A DNA stretch of 64,000 nt from a virus (lineage: Duplodnaviria; Caudoviricetes). Shown here one piece after another: positions 755 through 30,537 of this stretch. Each line of letters starts with the position of its first letter. The stretch's first letter is position 1. Position numbers and translations under genes: made by a program. Under the pieces are notes generated by a model. It was given only the letters and a program-made list of their open reading frames with translations. It had not been told where the DNA came from and did no database searches. The stretch lies in IMG/VR virus record IMGVR_UViG_641509434_000001, positions 15,233 to 79,232 of that record; one strand, 5' to 3'.

Positions 755-3217
755 TTGGTAGATTTAAACAAATTATCTGGGTTTGGGCAAAGAACTCTAG
801 ATAGCATATTCACAAGATCAAAACTAGAAAGTATGGTTGAAGAATATGAAAAAACAAAAATGAAAGAAACTATTGAAGATGCTGTAATTGATGAATTGCT
901 ATCTATTAGTAGCGTACCTACAGGAACAGTATCAATTCCTAACTTGAAATTGTCTTCTTCTAAAGTAGGAGATGAAGAATGGGAAGTAGAGATTAGCGGT
1001 GTTATTCAATCAACTATAGTTAAGAAAGGTATATGGTCTCCTTCGATAATGGTAAAACTAGAAGGCGTAGTCCCTAGAGAAAGACCAGTTATCAATGGTA
1101 AAATACCAGCATCTTCAGTAAAAGAAGACGAAGTAAACTCTGATTTATCAAACCCTAGATTAAGTACATTAGGTCTGTCTAGAGATGAAGTATCTAACAT
1201 AAAGAAATTTCTTGACAAAGAGGGCATTAGATATAAAGACAATTCTGACATGGGTCTGAATCAATATATTGAATTACGAGACATTCCTATGTCATCTGAC
1301 TTATCTTCATTAGGTACATATTCAGGTAGAATAACTTACCCAACAACGCAAGATTCTACAGACATGGGGATTACCCCCTTTGATCCTAGAACCCTTACAT
1401 TGTCAAACCCCACAATTGAATCTATTGCTGAGGGTAGCAAAGAAAAATTAGCTAACTCAAAAGCAGCTTCTATTATGTCTGACACGCCATTGAAAGTTTC
1501 TGAAGAATATGCAAAATCATTACCAGATGTTGTAAGTGGTAATGCTGATGCTGTACACAGTCAACTGACAAAACTTAGGTCTGATGACTTTAAGCGACTT
1601 AAGAATGCAGCAACTGAGTTAGAACCTTACATGAAAGATTCTAAATTTGCGGAAGCAGCAAGTAAAGGTAAGTCATTTGAGTATCAAGAACAACTGTCTG
1701 ATAGTGACAATAAGAAAATTGAAGCAATTAGAAAAAGATACAGTATTGATGCTGATGATTTGAAGAAGATTGCTATGTTTGACAAGAACAATCTTAAACT
1801 TTCAGATGGTCGTAATCTTAACATTCTTACTGATACAGAATCTTTTAGTGAGTCTAAATCATTATCAAATAATGCAAGACGTAAAAGTGACAATAAGATG
1901 AACTTCTCACTTCACACTATTAATGGTGAACGTATGTATGTTTATGGTGGTGACTCATTCTTGGACAATACAGACTTACGGGAAAATATTGCATTTGAAC
2001 CTAATAAGAAAAAAGCAAAACAAATTGCTTTATCTGAGAAAAAGATGAAAGAATATAACAGAAATCTTAATGAAGCATTAGGTGGAGCTCTTATTGAGGA
2101 TAAAGTCATCAATGGTGGTAAACATAAATATCGCAGTGATGAACTTGAAAACTTTGCAAAAGACTTCATGAAATCTGATATTGACTATGATAATCTTTCT
2201 CCACGTATTAAGACACTTATTAATGCTAAGAAGAAAGCAGAAAAAGGTGAGGTTGATACATCTACAGCAGTCACACTTGATGCGACCTTCTCTGGACTTG
2301 TTGTAACGTCAGGTATTCTTGGTCGTAAAGATGGACTTGATAAGGTCAACATTGTACCAGAAGGTGAAAAAGTAGGAGAAATGCATGACTTATATACTGA
2401 AGTCGGTAAAGACTTAATTAAAGATCTTACTGAGTATGGTATGGATAGTCATGCAGCACGTAAATTAGTTAAACCAGGTGTCATGCCTGCAATGTATAAC
2501 TCTTCTCAACGTGCACGTGCTACAAAACTTAGGGAAGAACTTAAAGACTATTTCCATGAGAAAACTGACATGAGTGAATCTGAGATTAAGGAAGCAATTA
2601 CTAAATTGAATCCAAACATTCAGAAGACAACTCAAGATGCGACAACTATTCTTATGGGTAAAGTCAATCCTAAAAGTATCATTGGTTTGAATAAGAAAGG
2701 CATTGTTAAATTATACAAACCAAAAGAAGGTACAGAACATGAAGGAGAAGTAGAAGAAATTAAGAACCCTACTGAAGATGACTTATTTCAAGTTTCGGCT
2801 TATAAGATTAAGCATCCAGATGGCAAAGTTTCATATTCTGCTAGAACTGAAAACAAAGTATCTAGAACTGTTGATGGTAAAATCTCAGTATCAAAAGATG
2901 CACTTTCAGTACCTTATGCTAAAGTCAATAAGATTGATAAGAATGGTAAAGCAAAATCACGTGATAATATGGGACTATTGATGAACTCAATGGCTCCAGG
3001 TATTGCACGTCACATGGACTCATATGTAGCTTCTACAGTTATCGAGAAAATGCATGACAAAGGTGTCCCAATCGTCACAGTTCATGACGCGATGATTGTT
3101 CCAGTATATGCAATGAACACTCTTAAAGATACTTACAATGACGCAGTCAACTCTCTATATAAATATACTGGTTCAGATATCAGAGTGGATGCTAGAAATA
3201 ACTTGAGTGTGGAATAA
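755..3217 (+). CDS. single-subunit (T7/T3-type) DNA-directed RNA polymerase, divergent
   Basis: C-terminal motif A VTLDATFSGL (cf. DGSCSGL), motif B ARKLVKPGVMPAMYNS (R-x3-K-x2-VM-x3-Y), APGIARHMDS, motif C IVTVHDAM; GGAGG RBS before TTG start. Confidence 0.85.
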   Translation: MVDLNKLSGFGQRTLDSIFTRSKLESMVEEYEKTKMKETIEDAVIDELLSISSVPTGTVSIPNLKLSSSKVGDEEWEVEISGVIQSTIVKKGIWSPSIMVKLEGVVPRERPVINGKIPASSVKEDEVNSDLSNPRLSTLGLSRDEVSNIKKFLDKEGIRYKDNSDMGLNQYIELRDIPMSSDLSSLGTYSGRITYPTTQDSTDMGITPFDPRTLTLSNPTIESIAEGSKEKLANSKAASIMSDTPLKVSEEYAKSLPDVVSGNADAVHSQLTKLRSDDFKRLKNAATELEPYMKDSKFAEAASKGKSFEYQEQLSDSDNKKIEAIRKRYSIDADDLKKIAMFDKNNLKLSDGRNLNILTDTESFSESKSLSNNARRKSDNKMNFSLHTINGERMYVYGGDSFLDNTDLRENIAFEPNKKKAKQIALSEKKMKEYNRNLNEALGGALIEDKVINGGKHKYRSDELENFAKDFMKSDIDYDNLSPRIKTLINAKKKAEKGEVDTSTAVTLDATFSGLVVTSGILGRKDGLDKVNIVPEGEKVGEMHDLYTEVGKDLIKDLTEYGMDSHAARKLVKPGVMPAMYNSSQRARATKLREELKDYFHEKTDMSESEIKEAITKLNPNIQKTTQDATTILMGKVNPKSIIGLNKKGIVKLYKPKEGTEHEGEVEEIKNPTEDDLFQVSAYKIKHPDGKVSYSARTENKVSRTVDGKISVSKDALSVPYAKVNKIDKNGKAKSRDNMGLLMNSMAPGIARHMDSYVASTVIEKMHDKGVPIVTVHDAMIVPVYAMNTLKDTYNDAVNSLYKYTGSDIRVDARNNLSVE

Positions 3218-3712: not shown

Positions 3713-4840
3713 GTGGAAGATAATGATTACTGGTTGATAGAAAATTCCCCTTTTATAGATTTTCCTAAGATAATGAGTAAAGATTGGATAATTGGAGTAT
3801 TGATTACTGGACGCAATCAAGGAAAAACATTTGGTTGGTGGCATTATTTTTATAAAGCTGCATTTCCTACTAGAGAGGCATTTTGGAATGGTGAAATACA
3901 TGAAAAGTTTGGTTCTATAGTAGGTAATCTACTAGAAGTAACTACTACAGATATGCAAAAATCAGCAGAAGATGTGCTGATGCCATATCTTGAAACAGGT
4001 CAGCAGGTTGAATTAGTTGTTCGAAAAGCTCAATGCTATTTGAGAATAATTTCTATCAATAATAAAGGCTTTAAAGAAGTATACTATGAACAAGTCATAG
4101 GAGTATATGCTTCTTTATCTCAACCTAATACAATGCGCCGTATTGGTGAACAAGGTATTACACTTGTTCTTATTGAGGAGTGCAACCCTGAAAAGGAAAA
4201 TCATCCATTCGTAGGTAATGATACTTCTAAACTTTCATCTATCATAAAATCTATTACAAAAGGTAATGAAGATGAAAAACCAGTACGTATCCTCGCTATT
4301 GGTAACCAACAACTATTCCCATCAACAGTTCTTAAGTTTCTTAAGTTTGACGAAAATGACTTAGGTCTTAAAGATGGTCGATTATTCTTAATGGTTGACA
4401 GGCCTAAGGGGTTTAAGAAGAAATATGAAACTCTTATCTCAGATAATAGTGACTATGATAACTTTTCTAAACGTAAGTTAAATGATATTACTGAGCTAAA
4501 AGCTAAAAAAGAAACATATATTGAAAAATTTAAAGAAGTTCAACCAACAGTGTTTATTACAAACAACCAAGGAGTTTCTGTTGCTGGTTGGGTAACTCGC
4601 TTTGAAGGACGAGATGTACTATTTACAGTTTCTGATATTAAAGACTTATCAGAGTTCAGTGATAGTCTTGCTTATGAATTAAGTCCATTTACAGCAGAAC
4701 GTAAACGGTTTGCTATGCAGTTGGATATAGTAAGAAAGTACTACTATATGAACTCAGTTGTTGTAGGTAAAGACGACCGAGATACTTATTATAGTTTGAA
4801 CACTCTTGGATGTATTCCAAGCAAGAAAAGAGGAATTTAA
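3713..4840 (+). CDS. phi29-like DNA encapsidation (packaging) ATPase
   Basis: Walker A-like ITGRNQGKTFGW near the N-terminus, Walker B-like LVLIEE, LAIGN; 375 aa with no recognisable nuclease domain; upstream of connector and capsid genes. Confidence 0.75.
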   Translation: MEDNDYWLIENSPFIDFPKIMSKDWIIGVLITGRNQGKTFGWWHYFYKAAFPTREAFWNGEIHEKFGSIVGNLLEVTTTDMQKSAEDVLMPYLETGQQVELVVRKAQCYLRIISINNKGFKEVYYEQVIGVYASLSQPNTMRRIGEQGITLVLIEECNPEKENHPFVGNDTSKLSSIIKSITKGNEDEKPVRILAIGNQQLFPSTVLKFLKFDENDLGLKDGRLFLMVDRPKGFKKKYETLISDNSDYDNFSKRKLNDITELKAKKETYIEKFKEVQPTVFITNNQGVSVAGWVTRFEGRDVLFTVSDIKDLSEFSDSLAYELSPFTAERKRFAMQLDIVRKYYYMNSVVVGKDDRDTYYSLNTLGCIPSKKRGI

Positions 4841-5379
4841 TGAAATTAGATTATACAGTAAATTCTTTGAATGAAATAAAATCTAGTCGTCAAGGTGGAG
4901 TATTTAGTAGCATTCCTGACAAACCTTCAATTAAACGAAGTGAGCTAGGTGTTCCTTCAAATTTGCAAAAAGCAACTATGACTACTAAAGCAACATCATC
5001 AAACATGACGATGAAACAAAGAGTAGGGTCTAGCCATGTAGAAAATTCTATTGCTGTAATGACATCGGATAAGTCTCAAAGAAATTCAATAAGAAACTTT
5101 GGATGGAACCCATATTCTAAGGCTGACTTAGCATTACAAAAAGTAAGAAAGAATTTAAGTAACACAGATAGATTGGACTTTGTATCTAAATCTATTCACA
5201 ACACTGCTTTCCAAAACCTTACTCCTCAAGATAAACAAAACATTCAAAAGATTGCTTACAATGAGGATGCGGTTGCTAATATGCAGGCACAGAAAGCTGA
5301 TACGCCAACTGTGCAAGGTAATATCAAACAACCAAGAAATACTCAACAAAATCAACAAGGAGCAAATCAAAATGGATAA
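4840..5379 (+). CDS. putative internal virion protein, LDYTV leader + SRQGG motif
   Basis: Starts MKLDYTVNSLNEIKSSRQGG; Q/N-rich C-terminus. Confidence 0.65.
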   Translation: MKLDYTVNSLNEIKSSRQGGVFSSIPDKPSIKRSELGVPSNLQKATMTTKATSSNMTMKQRVGSSHVENSIAVMTSDKSQRNSIRNFGWNPYSKADLALQKVRKNLSNTDRLDFVSKSIHNTAFQNLTPQDKQNIQKIAYNEDAVANMQAQKADTPTVQGNIKQPRNTQQNQQGANQNG

Positions 5380-6013
5380 CAACTATCAAGTAGATATTAA
5401 TGCAAATGTAACTAATGGTTCTTCTCGTATGGGTGGTAAATTTGGTGAAACAATTGCTAGACAGCTTAATAAAAGCAATGAAAAAACTAAAGCACGACGT
5501 GATGCTTGGTCTAAGAAAAACCCACAACAAGCTAAATACATGCATGACCGTGGTAAATCAATCATTACGCCAGGTGAACGAGCAGTTAAAGCTGGTGTAG
5601 GAGTTGCTATGGGAGCAGCTGGTGCTGTAGCATCAAATGCTATTAAAACTTCTTTAAACAAGAAAGTCAATGACAAACTTGATGAAGAAGGTGTCACAAA
5701 TAAGTATGAACGAGACATGATCAACTCAACAGTTAATGGAGCAGTAACTTCTGCAACTAAAACTATTCCGCAAGGAATTAAAACTATGCGTGGTGGTTCT
5801 CGTCTTGGTGCAATTGGTCAAGGACTTATTGGTCGTGTTTATGACAAAAACTCTGAAATCTTTGTTAATGGTTTGTCACCAGAACAGTTATCAATCCTGT
5901 TGAAAATCATTCCAGAGACAGACATGGATGCTTTACATGAAGCTATTCCTGGTTCAGAAGGTCATGAACTTGCTTATATTCCAGTACAAACATTGAATAC
6001 AATGGGGTTATAA
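5372..6013 (+). CDS. putative internal virion protein, NYQVDI leader + SRMGG/SRLGA motifs
   Basis: AAGGAG RBS before ATG 5372; MDNNYQVDINANVTNGSSRMGG; Ala/Gly hydrophobic stretch. Confidence 0.7.
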   Translation: MDNNYQVDINANVTNGSSRMGGKFGETIARQLNKSNEKTKARRDAWSKKNPQQAKYMHDRGKSIITPGERAVKAGVGVAMGAAGAVASNAIKTSLNKKVNDKLDEEGVTNKYERDMINSTVNGAVTSATKTIPQGIKTMRGGSRLGAIGQGLIGRVYDKNSEIFVNGLSPEQLSILLKIIPETDMDALHEAIPGSEGHELAYIPVQTLNTMGL

Positions 6014-6014
6014 T

Positions 6015-7109
6015 ATGAGCAAATATGATTATACAGTAGATATCAATAATGAATTGGTAGAAGAAGGACGTCAAGGTAGTTCTAAAACTAGATTACTAGT
6101 AGGAGCTGCAGCAGGTGGACTTGCTGTTAATGCTCTTGCAGGTGGTGCTAGTAAGGTCGACAAACATATTGAAAGTGAATTTCATCATCCTGACAACCGT
6201 CAAGGTGGTTTTGGAGACTTCTTAGGTGGCATCAGGGGAATTGACCCAATTGCTGGCTTTAAAGGTGACTACAGTGGAGCTAAACAAGCATCTAAGTCTA
6301 GTAACTATCTTAAAGCAAATAAGAGTAGAGCCAACAACTTAAATGTTGACTTGAACCCAAGTGGTACCTTAGGTGGACCTACTACACAACAAGACTGGAA
6401 AGATGCTGACCAAATGACTAACTTAGCTCAAACTGGTCAACGTCGTAGATTGCAAACTAATACTGGTCGTACTGCTACACAAGGACAAGCTAATGTAGAT
6501 AATGCAAACATTCAATCACAAGTAGGTGCACAAAATGCACTAAATAATTACAATTCTACTAGTACATTGAATAATACAAATATACAAAATGCACAACTTG
6601 GCTTTGATTCTACAAATTATAGAAACACTGCCAATAGTAATATCGCAAGTAATAACTACGATTCTACTACTGCCCAAAATTCTGCTAAAGCTGCTGGAGC
6701 TATGAACTCTGCAGGTGTTGATATGTTTAAACAAGTCGCATCTGCTTATGATCCAAATGCTGTTGGTACAGATGGTGTTGCTGGTGGAGCATTACCAGAC
6801 ATTACTTCTGCTCTTGAGAAAGGTGCAAATGCACAAACTCAACTTGCACAATCTAATGCTAATGCTCTTGGTACACGTAACTCTGCATACAACTTGGCAG
6901 AATCAAGTAATGCTGTAGCCTATGGTGGAATGAATAGTGATATCCAAAGTGCTAATACTGGTACAGCTAAAGCATACGGAACTATGAATTCTATAAATAG
7001 TGCTCACAACACATACTTAGCTAATGCTCAAACAGGTGCTATCCAAGGTAATCTTAACAATGCCTTGCAAGGATATGACCTTGATGATTCATATAACTAT
7101 GGTAAATAA
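6015..7109 (+). CDS. putative ejection/pilot-like protein, YDYTVDI leader + RQGS/RQGG motifs
   Basis: MSKYDYTVDINN...GRQGS, then a hydrophobic A/G helix, NRQGG, and a long N/Q/A-rich region. Confidence 0.7.
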   Translation: MSKYDYTVDINNELVEEGRQGSSKTRLLVGAAAGGLAVNALAGGASKVDKHIESEFHHPDNRQGGFGDFLGGIRGIDPIAGFKGDYSGAKQASKSSNYLKANKSRANNLNVDLNPSGTLGGPTTQQDWKDADQMTNLAQTGQRRRLQTNTGRTATQGQANVDNANIQSQVGAQNALNNYNSTSTLNNTNIQNAQLGFDSTNYRNTANSNIASNNYDSTTAQNSAKAAGAMNSAGVDMFKQVASAYDPNAVGTDGVAGGALPDITSALEKGANAQTQLAQSNANALGTRNSAYNLAESSNAVAYGGMNSDIQSANTGTAKAYGTMNSINSAHNTYLANAQTGAIQGNLNNALQGYDLDDSYNYGK

Positions 7110-7148
7110 TAGTTATAACTAATAATATACTTATGAGGAGAGTTCATA

Positions 7149-7604
7149 ATGATTGAAACTTATTTTGAAAACGCAAATTCTACCATCGAGAAACTACACT
7201 CGATGTTTGATAGAATGATTAGCACAGCAGACTCTATTAGCTTAGAGTTTGTCTCAGATGAAGACTCTGTAGAGGTAGACATTGATGCTGCTTCTTCAGA
7301 CAATTCACGATTCCAAGCAGCTTGTGTGGCTGCTAAAGAAGCACTTAATGATATTCAAACTGGTATCACACAAACTAAGAACCGGTTTGATACATTATCA
7401 AGCACAGTTTCTAGACGTAAAGCACAATTAGAGTTTGTTGATAATTCAATGGCTAAAATTGCTGCTGCTGAAACCTCTAAAAATGCTGATGAACTTATTG
7501 ACGAAGTTACATCTCCTAAGAAAGACTTTGCTGCTCTTAAAGCACAATATCCAGACTTTACAGATGAACAAATCAATATTCTACTAAATGCAGGAGGTAA
7601 ATAA
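7149..7604 (+). CDS. coiled-coil protein (scaffold-like?)
   Basis: Helical, charged composition; GAGGAG RBS; head module. Confidence 0.55.
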   Translation: MIETYFENANSTIEKLHSMFDRMISTADSISLEFVSDEDSVEVDIDAASSDNSRFQAACVAAKEALNDIQTGITQTKNRFDTLSSTVSRRKAQLEFVDNSMAKIAAAETSKNADELIDEVTSPKKDFAALKAQYPDFTDEQINILLNAGGK

Positions 7605-7606
7605 TT

Positions 7607-8011
7607 ATGCCTAGTTACTTAACATCAAAAACATTTCCACAAAAATTACAACTTACACCAGATGAAATTTATGACATCATCAATGCGCCAATGAAAGAAA
7701 TGGAAAAATCTGACTTACTCAGTAATGACCAATCTATGATTGACTTAATTGTTGAAACTATGCCACCTAACTTATCAATGGAACTTTCTCGTGACATTAG
7801 TAAAATTCGTGACTTATTCCAACAACTTGTTGAAGATGATGAACGTTATGCTAAACTTGTAAAAGAAGCAGCATCTCGTGTAGGCTCAGTACGTGAAGCT
7901 ACTAGAGAAGAAGAAGATGAAGCACAGCAAAAACTTCGCGAAAGTGAAAATATGCAGAAGAAAGCTGAGGAATTACTGGAGAATGCTCGTAAAGCACGGG
8001 AGGGTAAATGA
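7607..8011 (+). CDS. coiled-coil protein, ends in AREGK
   Basis: E/K/R-rich helical C-terminus. Confidence 0.6.
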   Translation: MPSYLTSKTFPQKLQLTPDEIYDIINAPMKEMEKSDLLSNDQSMIDLIVETMPPNLSMELSRDISKIRDLFQQLVEDDERYAKLVKEAASRVGSVREATREEEDEAQQKLRESENMQKKAEELLENARKAREGK

Positions 8012-8676
8012 TGAACCCAAGATTAGACAGTAAATTTCGTGAAGAACTTCGCCACATGACTCCGAAGACTGCTTTGCTTACACACTTAATGGACTATTGG
8101 ACATCAGAAATCAAGCCCAACTTAGACGATTTTTCCACTATTGGCAAGGAAGTCAAGGTTGTAGGAAACAACACTGAAGATTACATCATCCTACATGATG
8201 ATGGTGTAGTCTTAATTGGGCAAATTGATTACTGCCACTATGGTCCCTTCAATGGATTCTCAAGTGGACCTCTTACTCCTCGTCAATTGAGTATTGGTAT
8301 TGATGTACTCAACAATCCTCGTATTATTCAGTTGATGAATCAGCAAGAAAAACGTAACAAGAAACGAGTAATTGCAACTACTCTTCCTATAGATTCTATT
8401 AATGTTGTAACACGTACGATTATTTCAGGTAACTACAGTTTTCCTATTTCAAATGTTGAAATTGATCAAGATTCTAAAACATTCATTATCAAAACATTGA
8501 AATCACGAGACAACAAACTTTACCAAGATTATCAATTAATTGAAAATATTATGCCTAAGGAGATTATTATAGATGAATCCCACAATAGACTTTCTAGTGT
8601 CGATTCAGGAGAGTTACAAAATTCCGCTAACAGCATCGGAAATGACCCTACTGAAGACACTCATTCAAAAGACTGA
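8008..8676 (+). CDS. hypothetical protein
   Basis: 222-aa ORF, GGGAGG RBS, ATGA overlap with the previous gene. Confidence 0.65.
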   Translation: MMNPRLDSKFREELRHMTPKTALLTHLMDYWTSEIKPNLDDFSTIGKEVKVVGNNTEDYIILHDDGVVLIGQIDYCHYGPFNGFSSGPLTPRQLSIGIDVLNNPRIIQLMNQQEKRNKKRVIATTLPIDSINVVTRTIISGNYSFPISNVEIDQDSKTFIIKTLKSRDNKLYQDYQLIENIMPKEIIIDESHNRLSSVDSGELQNSANSIGNDPTEDTHSKD

Positions 8677-9121
8677 TTCTCCTAAAATATTTGACGCACC
8701 AGAAGAGTTTGAATTCTTAATTGGAACAGCTGGTGTGGGATATGCTAAAATAAAACAAAGTAGTGATAAAGGACTATTTGAAGAAGCTCCTCTATCTGGA
8801 GTAACTCGTGATGGTTGGGCAAAAACCGGTGGAAAATATAGTTCACCACTTAATGTTGCAACATCATTGTCTTATTTCTACAATTACTTGAAATACAAGT
8901 ATGAACAACCTATTTTAGATGTAAGTCCCTATGGTCATCTTCCTAATCATCCTTTAAATTTGTTTATAAAGAACAACAGCCCCATTGTTAATATTCTACC
9001 TGAAGTCATTACTGACTATGTAGAGTATAATAAGTGGTCAATTCTTACAGTGGATAAAACTTACAAAGCATACATTCCTGTGGAAGATACTAGTAGGAAG
9101 GATATAATGGACATCGAATGA
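8573..9121 (+). CDS. hypothetical protein
   Basis: AAGGAG RBS upstream of ATG 8573; coupled to the connector gene. Confidence 0.65.
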   Translation: MNPTIDFLVSIQESYKIPLTASEMTLLKTLIQKTDSPKIFDAPEEFEFLIGTAGVGYAKIKQSSDKGLFEEAPLSGVTRDGWAKTGGKYSSPLNVATSLSYFYNYLKYKYEQPILDVSPYGHLPNHPLNLFIKNNSPIVNILPEVITDYVEYNKWSILTVDKTYKAYIPVEDTSRKDIMDIE

Positions 9122-10077
9122 CATTTTTAGAAACTGATGCCAGAGAAGTCATTGAAACTTTTACAAATCAGAATCTACATAGATTTTATAATATGCTTCC
9201 AACTATGATTACTTGGGAGTGTGCTAACAAAGACCCAGACTATAGATTATCTTCAATGCAAGTTGAAAAGAATTTACGACTAGGTACAGGTCTTTGTGTA
9301 CTAGGTAGAGATATTGCAAATAACTTTACTTACTTATCTGACAACTTAACTCGCCCATTTCCTGGTATTGTCCCTCTTTGTGAGTGGAAACCAGAAAATA
9401 TGACAATCGCTGGTGCAGAAAACCCAGGTGCACCTCTTATCATTGTGACAAATCAAACTCCAATGATATCTCAAAGACTAGCTATGGATATTAGACGTGG
9501 TATCATATCAGGTCTATCTTCTGACCTTGCAGCTATTAGAATTGCAAGTGAAGAAATTGGAACTTTACAGTACTTACGTTATGCTAATGCAACTCAATTG
9601 AACAGACAAGCATTTATCTCTGGTCCATCCAAAGAAGCAGTTCGTGATACTCAAGAACAAATTCAAAGTTTATCTCCATTTGTAGGAATTGTAACTACTG
9701 ATGAAACATCTACTAATGCTAGCAATTTTGTAGAAGGCTCAATTACATCTCAGTCAATCAACAGTGTTGACAGAATGCAATCCTTTACGCAACAAATGGA
9801 CTCAATTGAAAGAAACTTACTTACTCAGTTAGGTGTTCCTACAATGGAAACTTCTAATGAACGACGTGTTCAAGCAGAAGTTGAAGCACTTAAGTCTGAA
9901 CCTCAAGTATATGCAGCAACTTATCAAAAACCTCGAGAAGAATCAGCTCGTCTTATTCTAGAATCTGAAGGTTACGAAGTTAAGCCTGTATTTACAATGT
10001 CATGGCAACAACCAATGTATCCAGGTAGCTCTGCTCTTATGGGACTTGGTCAGTTACCAATGAATCCAGTTCAATAG
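9118..10077 (+). CDS. phi29-like upper collar / connector (portal) protein
   Basis: 319 aa; NMLPTMITWE near the N-terminus and LLTQLGV-x6-NERRVQAEVE resemble phi29 gp10 family motifs; lies between ATPase and capsid. Confidence 0.7.
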   Translation: MTFLETDAREVIETFTNQNLHRFYNMLPTMITWECANKDPDYRLSSMQVEKNLRLGTGLCVLGRDIANNFTYLSDNLTRPFPGIVPLCEWKPENMTIAGAENPGAPLIIVTNQTPMISQRLAMDIRRGIISGLSSDLAAIRIASEEIGTLQYLRYANATQLNRQAFISGPSKEAVRDTQEQIQSLSPFVGIVTTDETSTNASNFVEGSITSQSINSVDRMQSFTQQMDSIERNLLTQLGVPTMETSNERRVQAEVEALKSEPQVYAATYQKPREESARLILESEGYEVKPVFTMSWQQPMYPGSSALMGLGQLPMNPVQ

Positions 10078-10157
10078 AAAAAGGGTATTATGACACTAAT
10101 AATTGCTGGTAGAGACCCAACGTCATTACTAGAATATCTAGAGAAAGGAGAAATTTC

Positions 10158-10340
10158 ATGAACAAGTTTGATTTTACAGTTTATGCAAAAATCAAAGCTA
10201 AACGTGATGAAGCAGTGAAAGATTTGCGAAAAATTAACTTATCAACAGATAAGTCTGTGGATAGAACTGCTGAAATCTCTGCTATTACTAGCTTAATTTC
10301 TGCACTTAATGCTCAACTGCAGGAGATTGTATATGGCTAA
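10158..10340 (+). CDS. small protein with FDFTV leader variant
   Basis: AAAGGAG RBS; MNKFDFTVYAK. Confidence 0.6.
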   Translation: MNKFDFTVYAKIKAKRDEAVKDLRKINLSTDKSVDRTAEISAITSLISALNAQLQEIVYG

Positions 10341-10743
10341 TTTAGATTACTCTGTAGATATACAAGGAATAATGACAAAGGATGCTTTGAGTAGAGAAGG
10401 TGCCACACTATCTGGCATTGCTCAAGCAGGTAAAGCAGCTTACAAAAAGACACCCGAAATGTTAAATAAAGCCAAAGGAATGGCTTATGAAAATGTTCCA
10501 TTTGCTAAAAAAGTAGGTAACTTATCAAAATCTAAAGTAGGCTTAGGAGCAGGTATGACAGCTTTGGCTGTTGCACCTGTTGCTATTAGTGCTGCTGATT
10601 CTGCAACAAGAGTCAGCGATTATGCACCTTATGCTGGAGCATCACAGCCTATGCAAACTGACATTTCTGCATTAACAAACAATAATACAAACGATGCATA
10701 CTCTGTAAATACCTCTGGTATTACAAATGCAACTTATCACTAA
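10333..10743 (+). CDS. putative internal virion protein, LDYSVDI leader + SREGA motif
   Basis: AGGAG RBS before ATG 10333; hydrophobic VGLGAGMTALAVAPVAISAA. Confidence 0.7.
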   Translation: MANLDYSVDIQGIMTKDALSREGATLSGIAQAGKAAYKKTPEMLNKAKGMAYENVPFAKKVGNLSKSKVGLGAGMTALAVAPVAISAADSATRVSDYAPYAGASQPMQTDISALTNNNTNDAYSVNTSGITNATYH

Positions 10744-10764
10744 AATAATAGGAGAAATTCAATA

Positions 10765-11478
10765 ATGAACGAATTTGAACAAGGTGTTGAATACACTGAT
10801 GACAACTTAGTAACTATGGTCCAAGAAGACCAAGCTGCAGTGGAAGCTGCTGCTGGTGGAACTGATAAAGACTTCGTAGCAGACACAACTGAAGGAGCTA
10901 ATCCAGAAGGACTCATCGACGAAGATGGTGAAGTAATTCCTGAAGGTGGAGCTCGTGAAGGTGGAGTAGTAGGCGACTATGCTAAAGCTCAAGGTAAAGC
11001 ACAAGTAAATGGTGCTATCCACCCATTGAAATCTAAACGTGCTAAAGCCCAAACTAAAGAAGACCGTTATGCTAATGGGGAAAACGTTGTAAGTCGTAAT
11101 GTACGCCCTTACTCTACTTCAGAACTTAACAAACAAGCTGACCTTGTAAGTAAGAAACCTGGCTATGGTCGTGAAGGTGCAAGTGAAGTAATGGCTCTTG
11201 GTGCTAATGGTCGTCCAATTCTTGACGTAACACCTAAAGCTGGTATGTCAGGTAAAGCTAAAGCAGGTATTGCTGCTGGTATTGGCGCTGCTGCTGCAGG
11301 AGTTGGAGCTGCTGCTTATGCTAAACGCAAACGTGATGAACGTAAAGGCGGAGATGAAGAAATGATTGAAGAACCATTTGTAGAATCAGCACCAGTAGAC
11401 TTTAGTGACCCAGTTGAAGCTAACTATGGATCTATTCAAGCCGCTGTCGGTTACGCAATGCAAGACCACCGTTTATAA
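10765..11478 (+). CDS. acidic putative internal/scaffold protein with AREGG, GREGA and RKGG motifs
   Basis: Acidic N-terminus, Ala/Gly hydrophobic helix; directly upstream of the capsid gene. Confidence 0.7.
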   Translation: MNEFEQGVEYTDDNLVTMVQEDQAAVEAAAGGTDKDFVADTTEGANPEGLIDEDGEVIPEGGAREGGVVGDYAKAQGKAQVNGAIHPLKSKRAKAQTKEDRYANGENVVSRNVRPYSTSELNKQADLVSKKPGYGREGASEVMALGANGRPILDVTPKAGMSGKAKAGIAAGIGAAAAGVGAAAYAKRKRDERKGGDEEMIEEPFVESAPVDFSDPVEANYGSIQAAVGYAMQDHRL

Positions 11479-11503
11479 GAATTATTAATATAGAATAATG
11501 TTT

Positions 11504-11560
11504 AATATAATTATACGTAAAGCCTAGAAACTTAACCTCAGGATAACCGTCTAATTATAT
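11504..11560. promoter_or_regulatory. dyad element, inverted copy of the 16158/18474 repeat, upstream of major capsid gene
   Basis: Reverse complement reads CGGTTATCCTGAG-GTTAAGTT-TCTAGGCTTTACG-TATAATTATATT. Confidence 0.55.
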
Positions 11561-11581
11561 ATAATTTAAGGAGAAAATTAA

Positions 11582-12916
11582 ATGCCATCAATTTCATCAA
11601 TCGGAGCTGGTTCACAAGCTTCTATCGCACATTCAACTGCTAATGCAAACATCCAATCAGACTGGACTGATGCATTGTTAATGACACAACATAGCAAACT
11701 CTATGTTGACTATGGTTCAAACATGAACCCATTGTCTGACTTCGTTACTCACAACGATACTCAATTCGGTGGTTTCATCCAAATGTTCGGTCTTAACTTG
11801 GCTACTGCTCACTACGCAAACAGCCCATCTAAGATCCGTGACGTAAACCCTGCTGTCCTTGAATCTCCAAGTATCATTGCAGAAATCGTTAAGAAAGAAC
11901 GTTCTGCTAAATTCTTGCTTTCAATCGACGAATCAGAAGTTATCAAAATCAACTCTTCACCAGCTGAAGAAGCTGCCTTCATTGAAGCCAACGTTGCTAA
12001 CTTGTACAAATCTAACTCATATGACGAATACTTCCACCTTGGTGGTATCTTGCTTGAGTCTGTAACTGGTCACGTATTCAACGTACAACTTATCAAAGAT
12101 CCAGCTAAATCTGATGCTGTTGCATTCAAACAAGTAGCTAAATCACTTAATGTGGCTGCTGCTGAAATGCTCTTGCCAACTGCAAACTACAACCCTTACG
12201 GACGTATTGTTGCAACTGACTCTGTTGATAACCTCCGCTTCATCACTACACCTGGTACTCAATTTGAAGTTAATGCTTGGCTTGCTGACCGTTACCACAA
12301 AACACTTGTTGACATGGGTGTCCAAACTACATTGGTTACTGAAGACCTCTTCGCTGAACGTTGGATCTATGCTACTGCACACACTGCAACTGCACAAGAC
12401 TTCACTGTTCAAGCTGACAGTACTCGTTGGTTAGACCCATTCACATTCGCTGTTAATGATGTTATCCCTGCTGGTTCATACGCTATGCCAGGTGCTGAAG
12501 GAGCTGTCCCAGTTGTTTCAGAAGCTGATGCTAAACGTTTCGTAGGAGCATTGTTAGACGAACGTGCATTTGGTCTCCGTGACCGTATCCCTGCTGCATT
12601 GTACCCAGAACGTTCAAATCGTGGTTTGGTATCAAACATCTGGTTGCAAGTACGTCAATGGGCTTACTCAACAGGTCTTGTTAATACTCTTGCATTCTAT
12701 GCAGAGTTGGATGCAGAACCTAAACTTACAGGTGCGGGTACATGGGTAGACGGTACAGATAATCGTACTATCTTGTTCGATGCATCTGCTGTATCTGGTG
12801 TTAAAGTAGGTGACTACGTAACATTCACAGTTGATAGTAAAGAAGTTGTCGGCTCAGTAGCTAAAGTTGACGGTGCCAACTCTTACGCTACAGTAGCAAT
12901 TGGTCTTAACAAATAG
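11582..12916 (+). CDS. major capsid protein (phi29-like) with C-terminal beta-rich extension
   Basis: 444 aa; strongly biased highly-expressed codon usage (TTC, AAC, ATC); TQFGGFIQ and SNRGLVSNIWL resemble phi29-family capsids; followed by a terminator. Confidence 0.75.
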   Translation: MPSISSIGAGSQASIAHSTANANIQSDWTDALLMTQHSKLYVDYGSNMNPLSDFVTHNDTQFGGFIQMFGLNLATAHYANSPSKIRDVNPAVLESPSIIAEIVKKERSAKFLLSIDESEVIKINSSPAEEAAFIEANVANLYKSNSYDEYFHLGGILLESVTGHVFNVQLIKDPAKSDAVAFKQVAKSLNVAAAEMLLPTANYNPYGRIVATDSVDNLRFITTPGTQFEVNAWLADRYHKTLVDMGVQTTLVTEDLFAERWIYATAHTATAQDFTVQADSTRWLDPFTFAVNDVIPAGSYAMPGAEGAVPVVSEADAKRFVGALLDERAFGLRDRIPAALYPERSNRGLVSNIWLQVRQWAYSTGLVNTLAFYAELDAEPKLTGAGTWVDGTDNRTILFDASAVSGVKVGDYVTFTVDSKEVVGSVAKVDGANSYATVAIGLNK

Positions 12917-12920
12917 ACCT

Positions 12921-12990
12921 AAAAGAGCTTAGGCTCTTTTATCAGCATATGACAACTCTCCTGTCATGTGTTGGTAAAAGAGCCTATTTT
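12921..12990 (+). terminator. terminator hairpin overlapping a longer ~25-bp stem-loop
   Basis: AAAAGAGC-TTAG-GCTCTTTT; alternative stem 12930-12986 with loop ACTCTCC. Confidence 0.6.
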
Positions 12991-13020
12991 CTTAATATTA
13001 CATTTTAAGGAGAAATAAAT

Positions 13021-13233
13021 ATGACATATAGCCCATTTGAGTCATTGAACTCAGACAGAATTACAGATACAAAAGAGGCTGCTGACTATCTTATTGCAGA
13101 TGTCTTAAACCGCCCTGTAACTTATCCAGAATTTGATAGCAAAGGCAATCCAATTCCAAGTTATCTAGGTCGTGTTTCAGATAAAATTGTAAATGGTCAG
13201 GACCGTGCAGTTAAAGTGAAAGGAATGAAATAA
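13021..13233 (+). CDS. small hypothetical virion protein
   Basis: AAGGAG RBS, 70 aa. Confidence 0.65.
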   Translation: MTYSPFESLNSDRITDTKEAADYLIADVLNRPVTYPEFDSKGNPIPSYLGRVSDKIVNGQDRAVKVKGMK

Positions 13234-13682
13234 TGAATAGATTAGATTATCATGTTGACATCACCAACAAAATCGAAAAATGTGATGGTCGTGAAGGAGC
13301 CCGTCAAGGTGCTTTAGGTGATGTTAAAGATCAAATGATGATTGCTCAACAACAAGCAATGGCTAAACAAAAAGCTGAAGCTCAACAGCAAGCTCAAATT
13401 TCTACCATTCGTGCAACACAAGCTGCACAAGATATTCCTGTAATCAATCAACAAGAACAACAAATTAATGTTCTTACTCAATCATTGCAAGATGCTCAAT
13501 CACAAAATATGCAATTACAAGGTGCAGTTCAAGAAGCTACTGCAGTAGCACAAGATGCTCAAGCACAAGCTGACCAAGCTGCCAATGTTATTAATACAGC
13601 TAATGTATTGACACAAATGCAAGCAGAGAACCCAGACTCTCCAGTTATCTTGGCTGCTGCCAATGATGCTACAGGAGAGTAG
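13233..13682 (+). CDS. Q/A-rich coiled-coil protein, LDYHVDI leader + GREGARQGA
   Basis: MNRLDYHVDITNKIEKCDGREGARQGALG. Confidence 0.7.
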   Translation: MNRLDYHVDITNKIEKCDGREGARQGALGDVKDQMMIAQQQAMAKQKAEAQQQAQISTIRATQAAQDIPVINQQEQQINVLTQSLQDAQSQNMQLQGAVQEATAVAQDAQAQADQAANVINTANVLTQMQAENPDSPVILAAANDATGE

Positions 13683-13964: not shown

Positions 13965-14828
13965 ATGTTGATTACAGCAGCAGGTAAAATAGGTGCAGGT
14001 AAAAGTGCACTAACTGCCATGTTGGCAGATGTTTTAGATACAAAAGCTATATATGAACCAATTGATGACAACCCTCTTCTAGAGAAATTCTATGAAGATA
14101 AAGATACTTATGGGTTTGTATTTCAAATAGACATGATTAGTCGTAGATTTGAATTGATTCAACAAGCATTACTACAAAATAATTCAGTACTTGATAGATC
14201 TATCTTGGAAGATTCAATCTTCTTAGACCAACTATTTCTTGAAGGACATGTGAATAAATATGAACATAGAGCTTATCACAAATTACTCGACAGAATGATG
14301 TTAGAACTAGATGTTCTACCAAAGAAACGACCAGATCTTCTTGTTTATATTGATGTCCCCTTTGATAAGGAAATTGAGCGTATCAATAAAAGAGCAAGAG
14401 CATTTGAGAAAGTATCAGAAGGGACAGAACTCTGGGATTATTTTGCAATGCATTCTAAAATGTATGACAAATGGATAAACGAATTTAACGAGTGTCCAGT
14501 CTATACAATTGATGCAATGAAATATGACTATGTCGAAAACGAACAAGACCGTATCGAAGTTCTTGAAAACATTGTTGCTAAACTTGTAACAATTGGAGCA
14601 TTAAGCTTTAAAGAAGCCACACTTGCATACTGTAAAATAAATAATGCAGCACCTACAATTGTAGCAATAACTTTATATAACAAAATTCAGAAATTGCTTG
14701 ACGGCAAATATGAATATCACAACTTGGCTAATCTATATGACTTGAACATTCAAACCATAGATAGCTTACAAGAACTCATTAGAAAAGAAAACGAAGGTAA
14801 TAAATGTTCAGTCATATCAAACACATAA
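13965..14828 (+). CDS. deoxynucleoside kinase (dNK family)
   Basis: P-loop GKIGAGKS, YEP, LDRSILED, PDLLVYID, ERINKRARAFE. Confidence 0.9.
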   Translation: MLITAAGKIGAGKSALTAMLADVLDTKAIYEPIDDNPLLEKFYEDKDTYGFVFQIDMISRRFELIQQALLQNNSVLDRSILEDSIFLDQLFLEGHVNKYEHRAYHKLLDRMMLELDVLPKKRPDLLVYIDVPFDKEIERINKRARAFEKVSEGTELWDYFAMHSKMYDKWINEFNECPVYTIDAMKYDYVENEQDRIEVLENIVAKLVTIGALSFKEATLAYCKINNAAPTIVAITLYNKIQKLLDGKYEYHNLANLYDLNIQTIDSLQELIRKENEGNKCSVISNT

Positions 14829-15553: not shown

Positions 15554-16153
15554 ATGTTCGATAAAGATGCAATCAAAAAGGACATGCTTAAACTAGCAGA
15601 ACAATTTGAAGGACATCCTGTTGACTATGATGCAAAGGATGGTCCTCAATGTGCTGACTTTTCTGCATTCCTTATTAAAAATACTACTGGTAAAACTATC
15701 TGGGGTAATGCAATTGAAACAGATAACAAAGAAAATATCAACATTATCAATGAAAACCCAAATGTTGAAGCCAAACATGTTGACCCACATGAAATTGCTG
15801 AAGGTGACTTGTTAGTCGAATCTAATAGTAACCCGAAGGTCGGTCACGTTTCTCTTATTGATAAAATTCATGACGATGGTACAGTAACTGTCTATGAACA
15901 AAACTTGGATGGTGATGCTACCGGCCCAAACCCACTGGGTGTACAAAAGCATACTAGAAAGTTAGCTGACTTTGATGGCTGGGGTAGAGTAATGGGTGCA
16001 TTACGTATCGAAGCTATACCTGAAGAGAAACAATGGGTACGCAACCCTAATTCTCGTCGTAACGGGCAACTGCAACGTGCGGGTAGCCGACAAGGTGGAG
16101 CCTATTCTAGTATCACTAGTCTATATGAACAGTTAGGTATGACGTTTAAGTAA
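15554..16153 (+). CDS. stand-alone CHAP-domain cysteine hydrolase with C-terminal SRQGG motif
   Basis: DYDAKDGPQCADF (catalytic Cys), WGNA, GHVSLI (His), VYEQN. Confidence 0.85.
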   Translation: MFDKDAIKKDMLKLAEQFEGHPVDYDAKDGPQCADFSAFLIKNTTGKTIWGNAIETDNKENINIINENPNVEAKHVDPHEIAEGDLLVESNSNPKVGHVSLIDKIHDDGTVTVYEQNLDGDATGPNPLGVQKHTRKLADFDGWGRVMGALRIEAIPEEKQWVRNPNSRRNGQLQRAGSRQGGAYSSITSLYEQLGMTFK

Positions 16154-16241: not shown

Positions 16242-16964
16242 ATGTGTGATAAAATAGATGGCTGGAACCCAGCCGACATTGAAGCAGGTGGTAATGGAAT
16301 TGAAGGCTATCAAGCCATGAATGGTATGTATGATTTAACTCATTCAGAAGATAGTGCTCGTGAAGGAGGTATGTTTCGTAAAGCTAAACATCCTATTCCA
16401 CAAATACAAGCTGATGAAGATGAGTATATGGACGACTTTAAAGCTTATGAAGACTTTATGTCTAATAACGAAAGTGAAGACTCAGAAGGTGGTGCCCGTG
16501 AGGGTGGTTTCATTAAAGATGCCACAACTGTTGACTCTAACTCAACTGGTGTAGCTGATACAGTCAAGAAAGGTGTAGATGCTATTGGAATCGGTAAGAT
16601 TCCATTTGTAGGCGGAGCTGCTAAATTCATTGCTGGCGATGTGGTAGGTGGACTTGCTGATGATGCAGTAAATGTTGTAGGACATGGTACTGCTGCAGCT
16701 GCAGATGCTATCAAAGGAGATACATCAAAGGCTGCTGGTCAACTTAAATCTGCTGCTATGCCTGCTTTCAACTTAGGTCTTACTGCTGCTACTGCTGGTG
16801 CAGGTGGAGCATTAGCTAAAGGTGGAGCTAAAGCTGCTGGTGCAGCTATGGCTAAGACTGCTGCTAAAGAACCACTTACATTAGTACAAGCTGGTATGTC
16901 TGGCTTACAAGACATTCAAGATAGAAATATTGATCAAAATAATTTACAAGACAATTTAAACTAA
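16242..16964 (+). CDS. putative internal/ejection protein with two AREGG motifs
   Basis: Acidic N-terminal segments end at SAREGG and GAREGG; Ala/Gly-rich amphipathic C-terminal half. Confidence 0.7.
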   Translation: MCDKIDGWNPADIEAGGNGIEGYQAMNGMYDLTHSEDSAREGGMFRKAKHPIPQIQADEDEYMDDFKAYEDFMSNNESEDSEGGAREGGFIKDATTVDSNSTGVADTVKKGVDAIGIGKIPFVGGAAKFIAGDVVGGLADDAVNVVGHGTAAAADAIKGDTSKAAGQLKSAAMPAFNLGLTAATAGAGGALAKGGAKAAGAAMAKTAAKEPLTLVQAGMSGLQDIQDRNIDQNNLQDNLN

Positions 16965-26493: not shown

Positions 26494-26543
26494 TATGAGA
26501 ATACGAGATAGAGTATTGTCATACTGGTTTTGGGATGTATCTT
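26494..26543 (+). repeat. 50-bp direct repeat, copy 1 (5' end of gene 30489)
   Basis: TATGAGAATACGAGATAGAGTATTGTCATACTGGTTTTGGGATGTATCTT, identical at 30488-30537. Confidence 0.9.
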
Positions 26544-26615
26544 TACAAATGCCATGGGAAAACATTCACTTTAAGAATACAAGAGATTATATCAAATTTT
26601 TAGAAAGGATATATT

Positions 26616-27517: not shown

Positions 27518-27532
27518 AAATAGGAGAATAAA

Positions 27533-28039: not shown

Positions 28040-28124
28040 AAGAAATGAAACAAATTGGAGTATCAATTATTAGAAAGTAGGGGTCTATGAAATTAAACAG
28101 CTCGTATTTTAGAAAGGATCTATT

Positions 28125-29024: not shown

Positions 29025-29041
29025 TGAGAAGGAGAAATTAA

Positions 29042-30400: not shown

Positions 30401-30487
30401 AGGCACTTTTAACAGCACTTTATGAATAACGCATTTAATTTAACTTAGTAGACTTTATATCTACTAAACAAATATAGGAGAAATAAC

Positions 30488-30537
30488 TATGAGAATACGA
30501 GATAGAGTATTGTCATACTGGTTTTGGGATGTATCTT
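30488..30537 (+). repeat. 50-bp direct repeat, copy 2
   Basis: Identical to 26494-26543. Confidence 0.9.

What the first reader, a model, noticed from the sequence alone, without database searches (positions are those of the whole stretch)
4840..13682. Shared N-terminal [LY]DYxVDI leader on six small proteins: putative capsid-targeting signal
Seen in sequence: MKLDYTVNS (4840), MDNNYQVDI (5372), MSKYDYTVDI (6015), MNKFDFTVYA (10158), MANLDYSVDI (10333), MNRLDYHVDI (13233). All lie within the first ~10 residues. In five of six, an RxG motif follows about 8-12 residues later. Established: T4 internal proteins carry a ~10-aa N-terminal capsid-targeting sequence that the prohead protease removes. 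Inference: DYxVDI docks cargo on the procapsid, portal or scaffold and is then cut off at RxG[GA]. It could be a portable tag for loading proteins into this capsid.
Basis: partly seen in the sequence, partly recalled or inferred. Interest (0 to 1): 0.85.

Follow-up and report, generated by a model that had tools for sequence, protein, structure and literature searches.

The report
Shared cleavable leader on phage head proteins
Five otherwise unrelated proteins in the head-gene block of a lactococcal phage begin with the same roughly 20-residue peptide, which ends in a probable cutting site, so it most likely works as a load-into-the-capsid-then-clip-off tag like phage T4's, although no packaging or cutting has been measured.

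Summary
Six + strand ORFs start with [DN][YF]xV[DNY]x at residue 4-5. Five are a tight family: M-x-x-[LY]-D-Y-x-V-D-I-x-N-x-[ILV], then [SG]-R-x-G-[GAS] 13-17 residues after the D. The sixth (10158) is doubtful.

The motif is at 6 of 112 N-termini against 0.03 expected. The mature parts are not homologous, and orthologues conserve the leader better than what follows it.

R-[EQMK]-G-[GAS] occurs 14 times against 2.1 expected, 13 of them in eight head-block proteins. In one relative a module has moved between two proteins exactly at these sites.

Best reading (about 0.5): a removable capsid-targeting propeptide on internal, probably membrane-active, proteins of a phi29-related phage. The genome's features match published Lactococcus phage KSY1.

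No prohead protease family was found. A CHAP peptidase carrying its own C-terminal site is the only peptidase-fold gene seen. Virion location, cleavage and docking are untested.

The scan has noted tags of this kind before on other DNA, mostly T4-like phages. This one differs in lineage, sequence and cut motif: a new variant of a known kind.

The parts
4840..5379 (+). Leader protein A, 179 aa, N/S/Q-rich. Leader aa 1-20; site RQGG at nt 4888-4899.
   Evidence: near-identical homologue P0034 starts at the same Met
5372..6013 (+). Leader protein B, 213 aa. Leader aa 1-22; site RMGG at nt 5426-5437. Gly/Ala-rich hydrophobic stretch from aa 74. Second conserved site S-R-x-G-A at nt 5801-5812.
6015..7109 (+). 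Leader protein C, 364 aa, A/N/G-rich. Leader aa 1-22; site RQGS at nt 6069-6080. Hydrophobic Gly/Ala stretch from aa 27. Second site RQGG at nt 6198-6209.
   Evidence: orthologue P0037 (49% identity) keeps the leader and both sites
10158..10340 (+). Doubtful sixth member, 60 aa. Degenerate N-terminal motif and no R-x-G site.
10333..10743 (+). Leader protein D, 136 aa, Ala-rich. Leader aa 1-24; site REGA at nt 10393-10404. Hydrophobic stretch from aa 69.
13233..13682 (+). Leader protein E, 149 aa, Gln/Ala-rich. Leader aa 1-23. Two adjacent sites, REGA and RQGA, at nt 13290-13313.
10765..11478 (+). Protein without the leader, 237 aa, with three sites (nt 10954-10965, 11170-11181, 11341-11352). 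These separate an acidic N-terminal part, a basic module, a Gly/Ala hydrophobic part and a conserved C-terminal peptide.
15554..16153 (+). CHAP-domain peptidase, 199 aa, with a site RQGG at nt 16088-16099, 20 residues from its C-terminus. It is either a candidate processing enzyme or a packaged wall hydrolase.
   Evidence: Pfam CHAP 2.5e-09; PHROG endolysin families
16242..16964 (+). Protein without the leader, 240 aa. Acidic N-terminal part with two REGG sites (nt 16359-16370, 16497-16508), then a Gly/Ala-rich hydrophobic region.
11582..12916 (+). Major capsid protein, phi29 type. No strict site.
   Evidence: PF25622 9.4e-18; phrog_2006 8e-76
9118..10077 (+). Connector (upper collar).
   Evidence: phrog_2038 2e-07
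7149..8011 (+). Two acidic, scaffold-like proteins (7149-7604 and 7607-8011). The second has a conserved R-x-G-[ST]-V-R at nt 7877-7888.
   Evidence: weak scaffold/minor-head PHROG hits
8008..9121 (+). Two overlapping conserved ORFs of unknown function between the scaffold-like genes and the connector. They are unproven candidates for an unrecognised protease or docking partner.
   Evidence: no family or usable fold
3713..4840 (+). Terminase-like packaging ATPase; marks the start of the head block.
   Evidence: phrog_2150 1.8e-10

Best explanation
The five proteins at 4840, 5372, 6015, 10333 and 13233 are made as precursors with a common N-terminal propeptide of about 20 residues.

Its first half alternates hydrophobic and polar residues (L-D-Y-x-V-D-I), as an edge beta-strand would. 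I infer that this strand docks the precursor onto a procapsid component (scaffold, capsid inner face, connector or the protease itself) while the head assembles.

Its end, [SGA]-R-x-G-[GAS], is a maturation cleavage site. The same site cuts other head-block proteins (10765, 16242 and the CHAP peptidase) into modules, as in a polyprotein.

After cleavage the leader is lost. The mature parts stay inside the very long head as internal proteins, probably ejected with the DNA. Several of them carry Gly/Ala-rich hydrophobic stretches.

Shown here: the tag, its portability, its conservation, and the site's enrichment and modular joints. Inferred: docking, cleavage, virion location and ejection. The enzyme is unknown. 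My split is about 40% an unrecognised phage protein, 30% the CHAP peptidase and 30% a host protease.
For: - Position and chance: the motif is at 6 of 112 N-termini against 0.0325 expected. Three of the five begin the D-Y hexamer at residue 5; 4840 and 5372 begin at residue 4 with N-for-D changes (4840: DYTVNS; 5372: NYQVDI).
- Portability: with leaders removed, no pair among the nine proteins compared (these five, 10158, 10765, 16242 and CHAP) reaches E < 0.05.
- Purifying selection on the peptide: in 8 aligned sequences of protein B (57-97% identity), residues 1-13 are 91% conserved against 57% for residues 23-72, and R19 and G21 are invariant. Codons differ synonymously among the paralogous leaders.
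- Constant anatomy: 18 of 19 sequences examined (5 from the window, 13 homologues) have motif plus R-x-G-[GAS] with D-to-R spacing of 13-17. The one miss is 10158.
- Specificity: a profile of the five leaders found 6 proteins at E <= 0.001 among 1,835,955,588. All 6 matches are at the N-terminus, and all 6 proteins are relatives of these genes.
- Site enrichment: R[EQMK]G[GAS] occurs 14 times in 112 proteins against 2.07 +/- 1.48 in 500 shuffles. Thirteen of the 14 lie in eight proteins between 4840 and 16964.
- Sites behave as joints: P0035 consists of the leader, then RQGG, then the module that lies between two sites of 10765 (61% identity over 76 aa), then RKGA, then the mature part of 13233 (71% identity). 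In the window, 13233 has the two sites back to back at that place.
- The site outlives the leader: a relative with 52% capsid identity has 10 R-[EQMK]-G sites, mostly S-R-K-G, all in three ORFs next to the CHAP and capsid genes.
- Context: all of these genes lie among terminase, scaffold-like, connector and capsid genes.
- Precedent: T4 internal proteins share only a conserved targeting sequence, which is removed by the prohead protease (passages read in PMC3012670, and PMC5694885).
Against: - No protein evidence: nothing here shows that these proteins are in virions, or that any R-x-G site is cut.
- No prohead protease family (S78/U35/U9, T4 gp21 type, ClpP/S49 or Prp/C108 type) was detected in 96 of 112 ORFs scanned with Pfam, nor in the 20 and 10 head-block proteins scanned with PHROGs and NCBIfam. 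Phage phi29 itself matures without a protease (recalled).
- The capsid protein, connector and first scaffold-like protein carry no strict site.
- The leader was not found in the more distant relative L003, though only 7.2 kb was available.
- A shared propeptide could serve protease recognition alone. Three proteins with sites (10765, 16242, CHAP) lack the leader, so it is not needed for a protein to carry sites.
- The motif definitions are post hoc.
Confidence: 0.5

Rival explanations
1. The leader is a removable propeptide, but its job is recognition by, or latency towards, the processing enzyme. It would hold membrane-active proteins inactive until cut. It is not an address for the capsid; packaging is determined elsewhere in the proteins.
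For: The leader always comes with a site 13-17 residues downstream. Several mature parts carry Gly/Ala-rich hydrophobic stretches that could be harmful if free. Proteins 10765, 16242 and CHAP have sites but no leader, so whatever places them in the head block's processing pathway does not need the leader.
Against: Internal sites are presumably cut without a nearby leader, so the leader is not needed for recognition of a site. The strong conservation of a strand-like heptad, distinct from the site and separated from it by a variable spacer, fits a second binding function.
Confidence: 0.2
2. The N-terminal strand is a permanent anchor that is not cut. It attaches five different proteins to one repeated site on the capsid, an inner core or each other (this phage is described as having a decorated capsid). 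R-x-G-G would then be a flexible hinge.
For: The alternating hydrophobic pattern suits strand addition. The capsid is described as decorated in PMC3900856 (passage). Gly-rich sites could be linkers.
Against: The invariant Arg two residues before an invariant Gly, kept across paralogues and orthologues while the residue between them varies, looks like a recognition motif rather than a linker. The same motif sits at the exact joints of a moved module and is doubled where the module is absent.
Confidence: 0.12
3. The leaders are export signals of the double-glycine (bacteriocin) type. They would be removed by a host ABC-transporter peptidase, and the Gly-rich hydrophobic products would be secreted membrane-active peptides.
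For: The length (about 20 aa) fits. The leader ends in Gly-Gly in 2 of 5 window proteins. The products have Gly-rich hydrophobic segments. The host genus is known for such bacteriocins (recalled).
Against: No bacteriocin-type signal or family was matched at E <= 1 in NCBIfam or at E <= 0.1 in Pfam. The residue before the last Gly is Q, E or M, not Gly, and an invariant Arg is not part of that consensus (recalled). The proteins are 136-364 aa long, lie between terminase and capsid genes, and the same site recurs internally in other head-block proteins.
Confidence: 0.03
4. The shared N-termini are remnants of gene duplication or recombination, with no function of their own.
For: The genes are clustered, and modules do move between them.
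Against: The leader is the best-conserved part of the N-terminal half in orthologues. The rest of the proteins share nothing detectable. Codons differ synonymously.
Confidence: 0.02

Closest known systems
Phage T4 capsid targeting sequence (CTS) on internal proteins IPI-III and Alt, removed by prohead protease gp21
   Same: It is a short N-terminal peptide (10-20 residues) that is the only thing shared by otherwise diverse proteins. It ends at the cleavage motif of the head maturation system, which also processes other head proteins. The proteins are internal and ejected (passages read in PMC3012670; PMC5694885).
   Different: The sequence is unrelated. The predicted cut motif is different: Arg-x-Gly-[Gly/Ala/Ser] rather than a Glu-ending motif (recalled for T4). 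The phage has a phi29-type capsid and connector. No gp21-like protease was detected. The capsid protein has no site. Packaging and cleavage are unproven here.
Propeptides of head and ejection proteins in phiKZ-like giant phages (SPN3US gp245, phiKZ gp175 proteases)
   Same: Many head proteins are cut at one short motif. There are multiple sites per protein. Paralogues have identical N-termini and diverged bodies. The protease cuts its own C-terminus, and the CHAP protein here carries a site 20 residues from its C-terminus (passages in PMC5694885).
   Different: In those phages the propeptides are mostly longer than 100 residues, the motif ends in Glu, and the protease is T4-like. None of this is seen here.
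Protease of the phi29-related pneumococcal phage Cp-1 (MEROPS C108, Prp family), which removes 48 residues from its major head protein
   Same: It shows that a phi29-related phage of a lactic-acid-type host can use maturation proteolysis by a small cysteine peptidase (passage in PMC12445089).
   Different: There the substrate is the capsid protein. Here the capsid protein has no site, and no Prp-family domain was found in 96 ORFs scanned.
   Same: It works alike in outline. Several internal precursors, one of them membrane-active, are cut inside the capsid by a cysteine protease at a short x-Gly-Gly type motif.
   Different: It is a eukaryotic virus with an unrelated protease clan and no shared N-terminal address peptide. 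This is an analogy only.
Double-glycine leader peptides of class II bacteriocins; recalled
   Same: Leader length and a Gly at the last position.
   Different: See the third rival explanation. No family match, a different penultimate residue, and a head-gene context.

Membership tests
T4-type capsid targeting sequence system | Short peptide at the extreme N-terminus, shared by proteins otherwise unrelated | tested here: met
   The motif starts at residue 4-5 in five proteins. Mature parts share nothing at E < 0.05.
T4-type capsid targeting sequence system | The peptide ends at the cleavage motif of the head maturation protease, and that motif also occurs in other head proteins | tested here: inconclusive
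   A motif R-x-G-[GAS] follows in 5 of 5. It is enriched (14 against 2.07 expected) and confined to head-block proteins. That it is a cleavage site rests on inference from module joints, not on protein data.
T4-type capsid targeting sequence system | A prohead protease gene of the T4 gp21 / HK97 (S78, U35, U9) kind in the genome | tested here: not met
   No such Pfam family at E <= 0.001 in 96 of 112 ORFs. No protease PHROG among 20 head-block proteins. The 16 ORFs not scanned with Pfam are all 81 aa or shorter.
T4-type capsid targeting sequence system | Sequence similarity of the tag to the T4 CTS | not tested
   No T4 sequence was fetched. The profile search returned only relatives of this phage.
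T4-type capsid targeting sequence system | Tagged proteins are in the virion, and the tag is sufficient to package a foreign protein | not testable with these tools
   This needs virion mass spectrometry and reporter fusions. The 2007 description of the matching phage, which may list virion proteins, is not held.
Double-glycine (bacteriocin-type) leader | Match to curated leader or bacteriocin models; Gly-Gly at the last two leader positions | tested here: not met
   No such family at E <= 1 in NCBIfam or E <= 0.1 in Pfam. The last residues are R-[QEM]-G in all five.
Prp / Cp-1-type (C108) processing | A Prp-family peptidase gene in the phage | tested here: not met
   No Prp-family Pfam match in 96 ORFs. 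A host-encoded Prp was not examined.
phi29-like head module | phi29-type major capsid protein and upper collar connector | tested here: met
   PF25622 Phi29_MCP 9.4e-18. phrog_2038 upper collar connector 2e-07, and phrog_3225 (connector category, named 'adaptor Ad4') 1.1e-06.

The most novel reading that the evidence does not exclude
The small CHAP-domain peptidase at 15554-16153 may be the head maturation protease. It belongs to a family otherwise known as cell-wall endopeptidases. It would cut Gly-[Gly/Ala/Ser] bonds after Arg-x in at least eight head proteins and in its own C-terminal tail. The DYxVDI strand would be the address that brings cargo to it, or to the scaffold, inside the procapsid. 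This would be a new class of capsid protease together with a portable packaging tag for a phi29-related phage of a food-grade host.
Probability: 0.15. Interest if true: 0.8.

Novelty: new variant of a known kind. Interest (0 to 1): 0.55.

Why it matters
Targeting tags for phage capsids are established experimentally in few systems (T4; for phage P1 I saw only a search listing), and all of those are large myoviruses. Here the same logic appears in a phi29-related podovirus with an extremely elongated head, with a different tag, a different cut motif and no recognisable prohead protease.

If the reading holds, it gives three things:
- It would explain why this phage carries a block of low-complexity, Gly/Ala-rich proteins among its head genes.
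- It would provide a handle to find a new kind of maturation protease.
- It would provide a short tag for loading proteins into a phage of Lactococcus lactis, a tractable food-grade host.

The genome's features match a phage held in a public collection, so one virion mass-spectrometry run could test the claim directly.

Tried and rejected
- Relatives with context. Scans for capsid relatives in viral contigs and genome contigs found none. The one metagenome scan gave only two short loci. Scans with the CHAP protein and its alignment found none. Cultured-phage records hold no match to the DNA, to 8008 or to 6015. For the capsid protein there was only Weissella phage phiYS61, at 22.5% identity. 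The gene neighbourhoods of the 50-56% capsid relatives could therefore not be examined.
- Protease hunt. Pfam, PHROGs and NCBIfam gave nothing beyond CHAP. PDB sequence searches with 8008 and 8573 gave only chance-level hits, E >= 0.09. ESM Atlas gave no usable lead. The AlphaFold2 model of 8008 had mean pLDDT 42.0. The model of the CHAP protein with its tail had mean pLDDT 50.9, with the tail below 35. Both are too poor for fold searches or for judging whether the tail sits in the active site, so no fold search was run.
Docking therefore remains untested.
- DNA-level explanation. I considered a shared nucleotide element and rejected it, because the leaders differ at synonymous positions.
- Host Prp-type processing and type IV prepilin-like processing were considered from memory. 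I set them aside because the motif and the position of the hydrophobic segments do not fit. Neither was tested.
- Earlier notes of this scan on this genome: none.
- Literature. Two searches for the matching phage's name, one with 'lactococcal phage' (16 papers) and one with propeptide, proteolytic, prohead or capsid targeting (one unrelated paper), found no description of this tag. The original 2007 paper is not held and supplements were closed. Either could contain virion protein data that bear on the claim.

Full report
**What the DNA is.** The window is bases 15233-79232 of a 79,232-bp virus record rated complete.
- The record has 35.11% G+C, and the window has three tRNA genes.
- Nearly all genes are on one strand.
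- It encodes a phi29-type major capsid protein (PF25622, 9.4e-18; phrog_2006, 8e-76).
- It has a second capsid-like gene, a phi29-type upper collar, a connector-category protein (phrog_3225, 'adaptor Ad4') and a terminase-like ATPase.
- It has an RNA polymerase of the single-subunit type at 755-3217 and another in the first 15 kb.

These figures coincide with the published description of Lactococcus phage KSY1: 79,232 bp, 35.1% G+C, three tRNAs, two capsid genes, two RNA polymerase genes and a 223 x 45 nm head (passages and section 2.7 of PMC11476376). The identity is inferred from these features, not from a sequence comparison, because the collections leave out the window's own record.

**The observation.** The six N-termini are as quoted.
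- The pattern [DN][YF]xV[DNY][IVLSA] occurs six times in all six frames of the window, always on the + strand and always at residue 4 or 5 after an ATG.
- The whole genome adds two matches, both in stop-ridden minus frames.
- Six of 112 predicted proteins have it within the first 14 residues, against a mean of 0.0325 in 2000 shuffles.
- Because the pattern was drawn from these sequences, I also compared all N-termini without a motif. After three pairs of full-length paralogues and one pair involving 10158, the top pairs are among 4840, 5372, 6015, 10333 and 13233.
- ORF 10158 (60 aa) lacks the downstream site and resembles an unrelated N-terminus more than it resembles the leaders. I treat it as doubtful.
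- Aligned, the five read M-x-x-[LY]-D-Y-x-V-D-I-x-N-x-[ILV], then a short variable spacer, then [SG]-R-x-G-[GAS].
- Most of the starts have ribosome-binding-like sequences, and independent gene calls in other datasets begin at the same Met.

**Is the tag functional?** Four results say so.
- With leaders removed, the five proteins, and the three other site-bearing proteins, share nothing at E < 0.05. The tag is therefore portable, not a remnant of whole-gene duplication.
- In seven homologues of protein B (57-97% identity), residues 1-13 are 91% conserved against 57% for residues 23-72, and R19 and G21 are invariant. Orthologues of proteins C and E keep the tag too.
- The paralogous leaders differ at synonymous codon positions, so selection acts on the peptide.
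- A profile of the five leaders searched against 1.84 billion representative proteins gave six hits at E <= 0.001. Every match is at the N-terminus, and every hit is a relative of one of these genes.

The tag is thus specific and confined to a small clade. In 18 of 19 sequences the D-to-R spacing is 13-17.

**The second motif.** R[EQMK]G[GAS] occurs 14 times in the 112 proteins, against 2.07 +/- 1.48 in shuffles. Thirteen of the 14 fall in eight proteins between 4840 and 16964:
- the five leader proteins, three of which have a second site (for 5372 it is S-R-L-G-A, which falls outside the strict pattern and is seen in the broader list and);
- 10765, with three sites;
- 16242, with two sites;
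- a CHAP-domain peptidase, with one site 20 residues from its C-terminus.

Arg and Gly are invariant in orthologues, while the residue between them changes.

The most telling result is P0035, a relative's protein. It consists of the leader, then RQGG, then the segment that in the window lies between two sites of 10765 (61% identity), then RKGA, then the mature part of 13233 (71% identity). In the window's 13233 the two sites stand back to back at exactly that point. Modules bounded by these sites can therefore sit in different polypeptides. That is expected if the sites are cut and the modules act on their own.

A more distant relative, L003 (52% capsid identity), has ten R-[EQMK]-G sites, mostly S-R-K-G. 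All ten are in three ORFs flanking its CHAP and capsid genes. No DYxVDI leader appears in the 7.2 kb available.

**What the cargo looks like.** Proteins B, C and D, and also 10765 and 16242, contain Gly/Ala-rich hydrophobic stretches. Proteins A, C and E are low-complexity (N/S/Q, A/N/G and Q/A). 10765 and 16242 begin with long acidic segments that end in the same EGGAREGG. This fits internal or ejected, possibly membrane-active proteins, but that is inference. None matches a PHROG, Pfam or NCBIfam family.

**The enzyme.**
- No prohead protease family was found in 96 of 112 ORFs scanned with Pfam. The rest are 81 aa or shorter. None was found in the PHROG or NCBIfam scans of head-block proteins.
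- The only peptidase-fold protein is the CHAP protein. Its Cys, His and Glu-x-Asn positions are conserved.
- It is 59% identical to its L003 counterpart, more than the capsid protein is. In L003 it lies directly among head genes.
- Its nearest cultured-phage relatives are the CHAP domains of streptococcal prophage lysins, at 29-34% identity.
- A separate amidase endolysin and a holin exist elsewhere in the window.
- A site near its own C-terminus parallels the C-terminal self-cleavage reported for giant-phage prohead proteases (PMC5694885). It fits equally well with the CHAP protein being a packaged wall hydrolase.
- Two conserved unknown ORFs next to the connector (8008 and 8573) gave no family, no PDB relative and no usable model.
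- The CHAP model was also too poor to judge where its tail lies.

**Reading.** The anatomy matches the logic of the T4 capsid targeting sequence: a short N-terminal peptide, the only thing shared by diverse internal proteins, removed at the head protease's motif. I hold that reading at about 0.5.

The main rival (0.2) is a propeptide that serves only recognition or latency. A permanent anchor strand (0.12), an export leader (0.03) and a functionless remnant (0.02) fit the data less well, for the reasons given under each rival.

Membership in the T4-type system fails on the protease feature and is untested on the protein-level features. I therefore describe this as working like a CTS, not as a member of that family.

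**Novelty.** Two literature searches found no description of this tag. The original paper on the matching phage is not held, and supplements were closed. Virion protein data there could confirm or refute parts of this report. The scan's own notes list similar shared leaders in other phages, mostly T4-like or jumbo. This case differs in lineage (phi29-related), in tag sequence, in cut motif and in lacking a recognisable protease. I rate it a new variant of a known kind, with interest 0.55.

Noticed in passing
window 13290-13313; protein P0035: Protein 13233 has two sites back to back (REGA, RQGA). In a relative, a 70-residue basic module lies between the equivalent sites; in the window that module belongs to protein 10765. 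This is module exchange at the site motif.
   Followed up: yes
window 8008-8676 and 8573-9121; L003 4136-4843 and 4743-5183: Two conserved ORFs of unknown function overlap by about 100 nt, with the second in the +1 frame, in both the window and the distant relative. Another database starts the second ORF at its residue 24. The overlap could be a real nested start or a programmed frameshift.
   Followed up: partly
L003 1180-1575: In the relative, the CHAP gene stops where the window's CHAP continues into its tail. An overlapping +1 frame carries three R-K-G sites. This may be a frameshifted or mis-assembled fusion, or a separate small gene.
   Followed up: partly
window 11431-11475; L003 724-768: The last 15 residues of protein 10765 are 67% identical to the end of the acidic/basic protein upstream of CHAP in L003, while the rest is not alignable. 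It is a candidate C-terminal docking peptide.
   Followed up: partly
window 7877-7888: The second scaffold-like protein has R-V-G-S-V-R, conserved as R-I-G-T-V-R in L003. It may be a looser version of the site, lying in a scaffold.
   Followed up: partly
window 13965-15553: A deoxynucleoside kinase gene and a nicotinamide mononucleotide transporter gene sit inside the head-gene block, between the capsid gene and the CHAP gene.
   Followed up: no
window 26495-30725: Two tandem cassettes have near-identical N-termini on three gene pairs, and BppU/BppL baseplate domains are present twice. This is a duplicated receptor-binding module.
   Followed up: no
window 18738-19844: A second, diverged capsid-like gene (phrog_2006, 7.9e-07) lies downstream of the lower-collar-like gene.
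   Followed up: no
window 755-3217: An 820-aa single-subunit RNA polymerase-like gene lies directly upstream of the packaging and head genes. It has no leader and no site. Whether it is packaged, like the N4 virion polymerase, is open.
   Followed up: no
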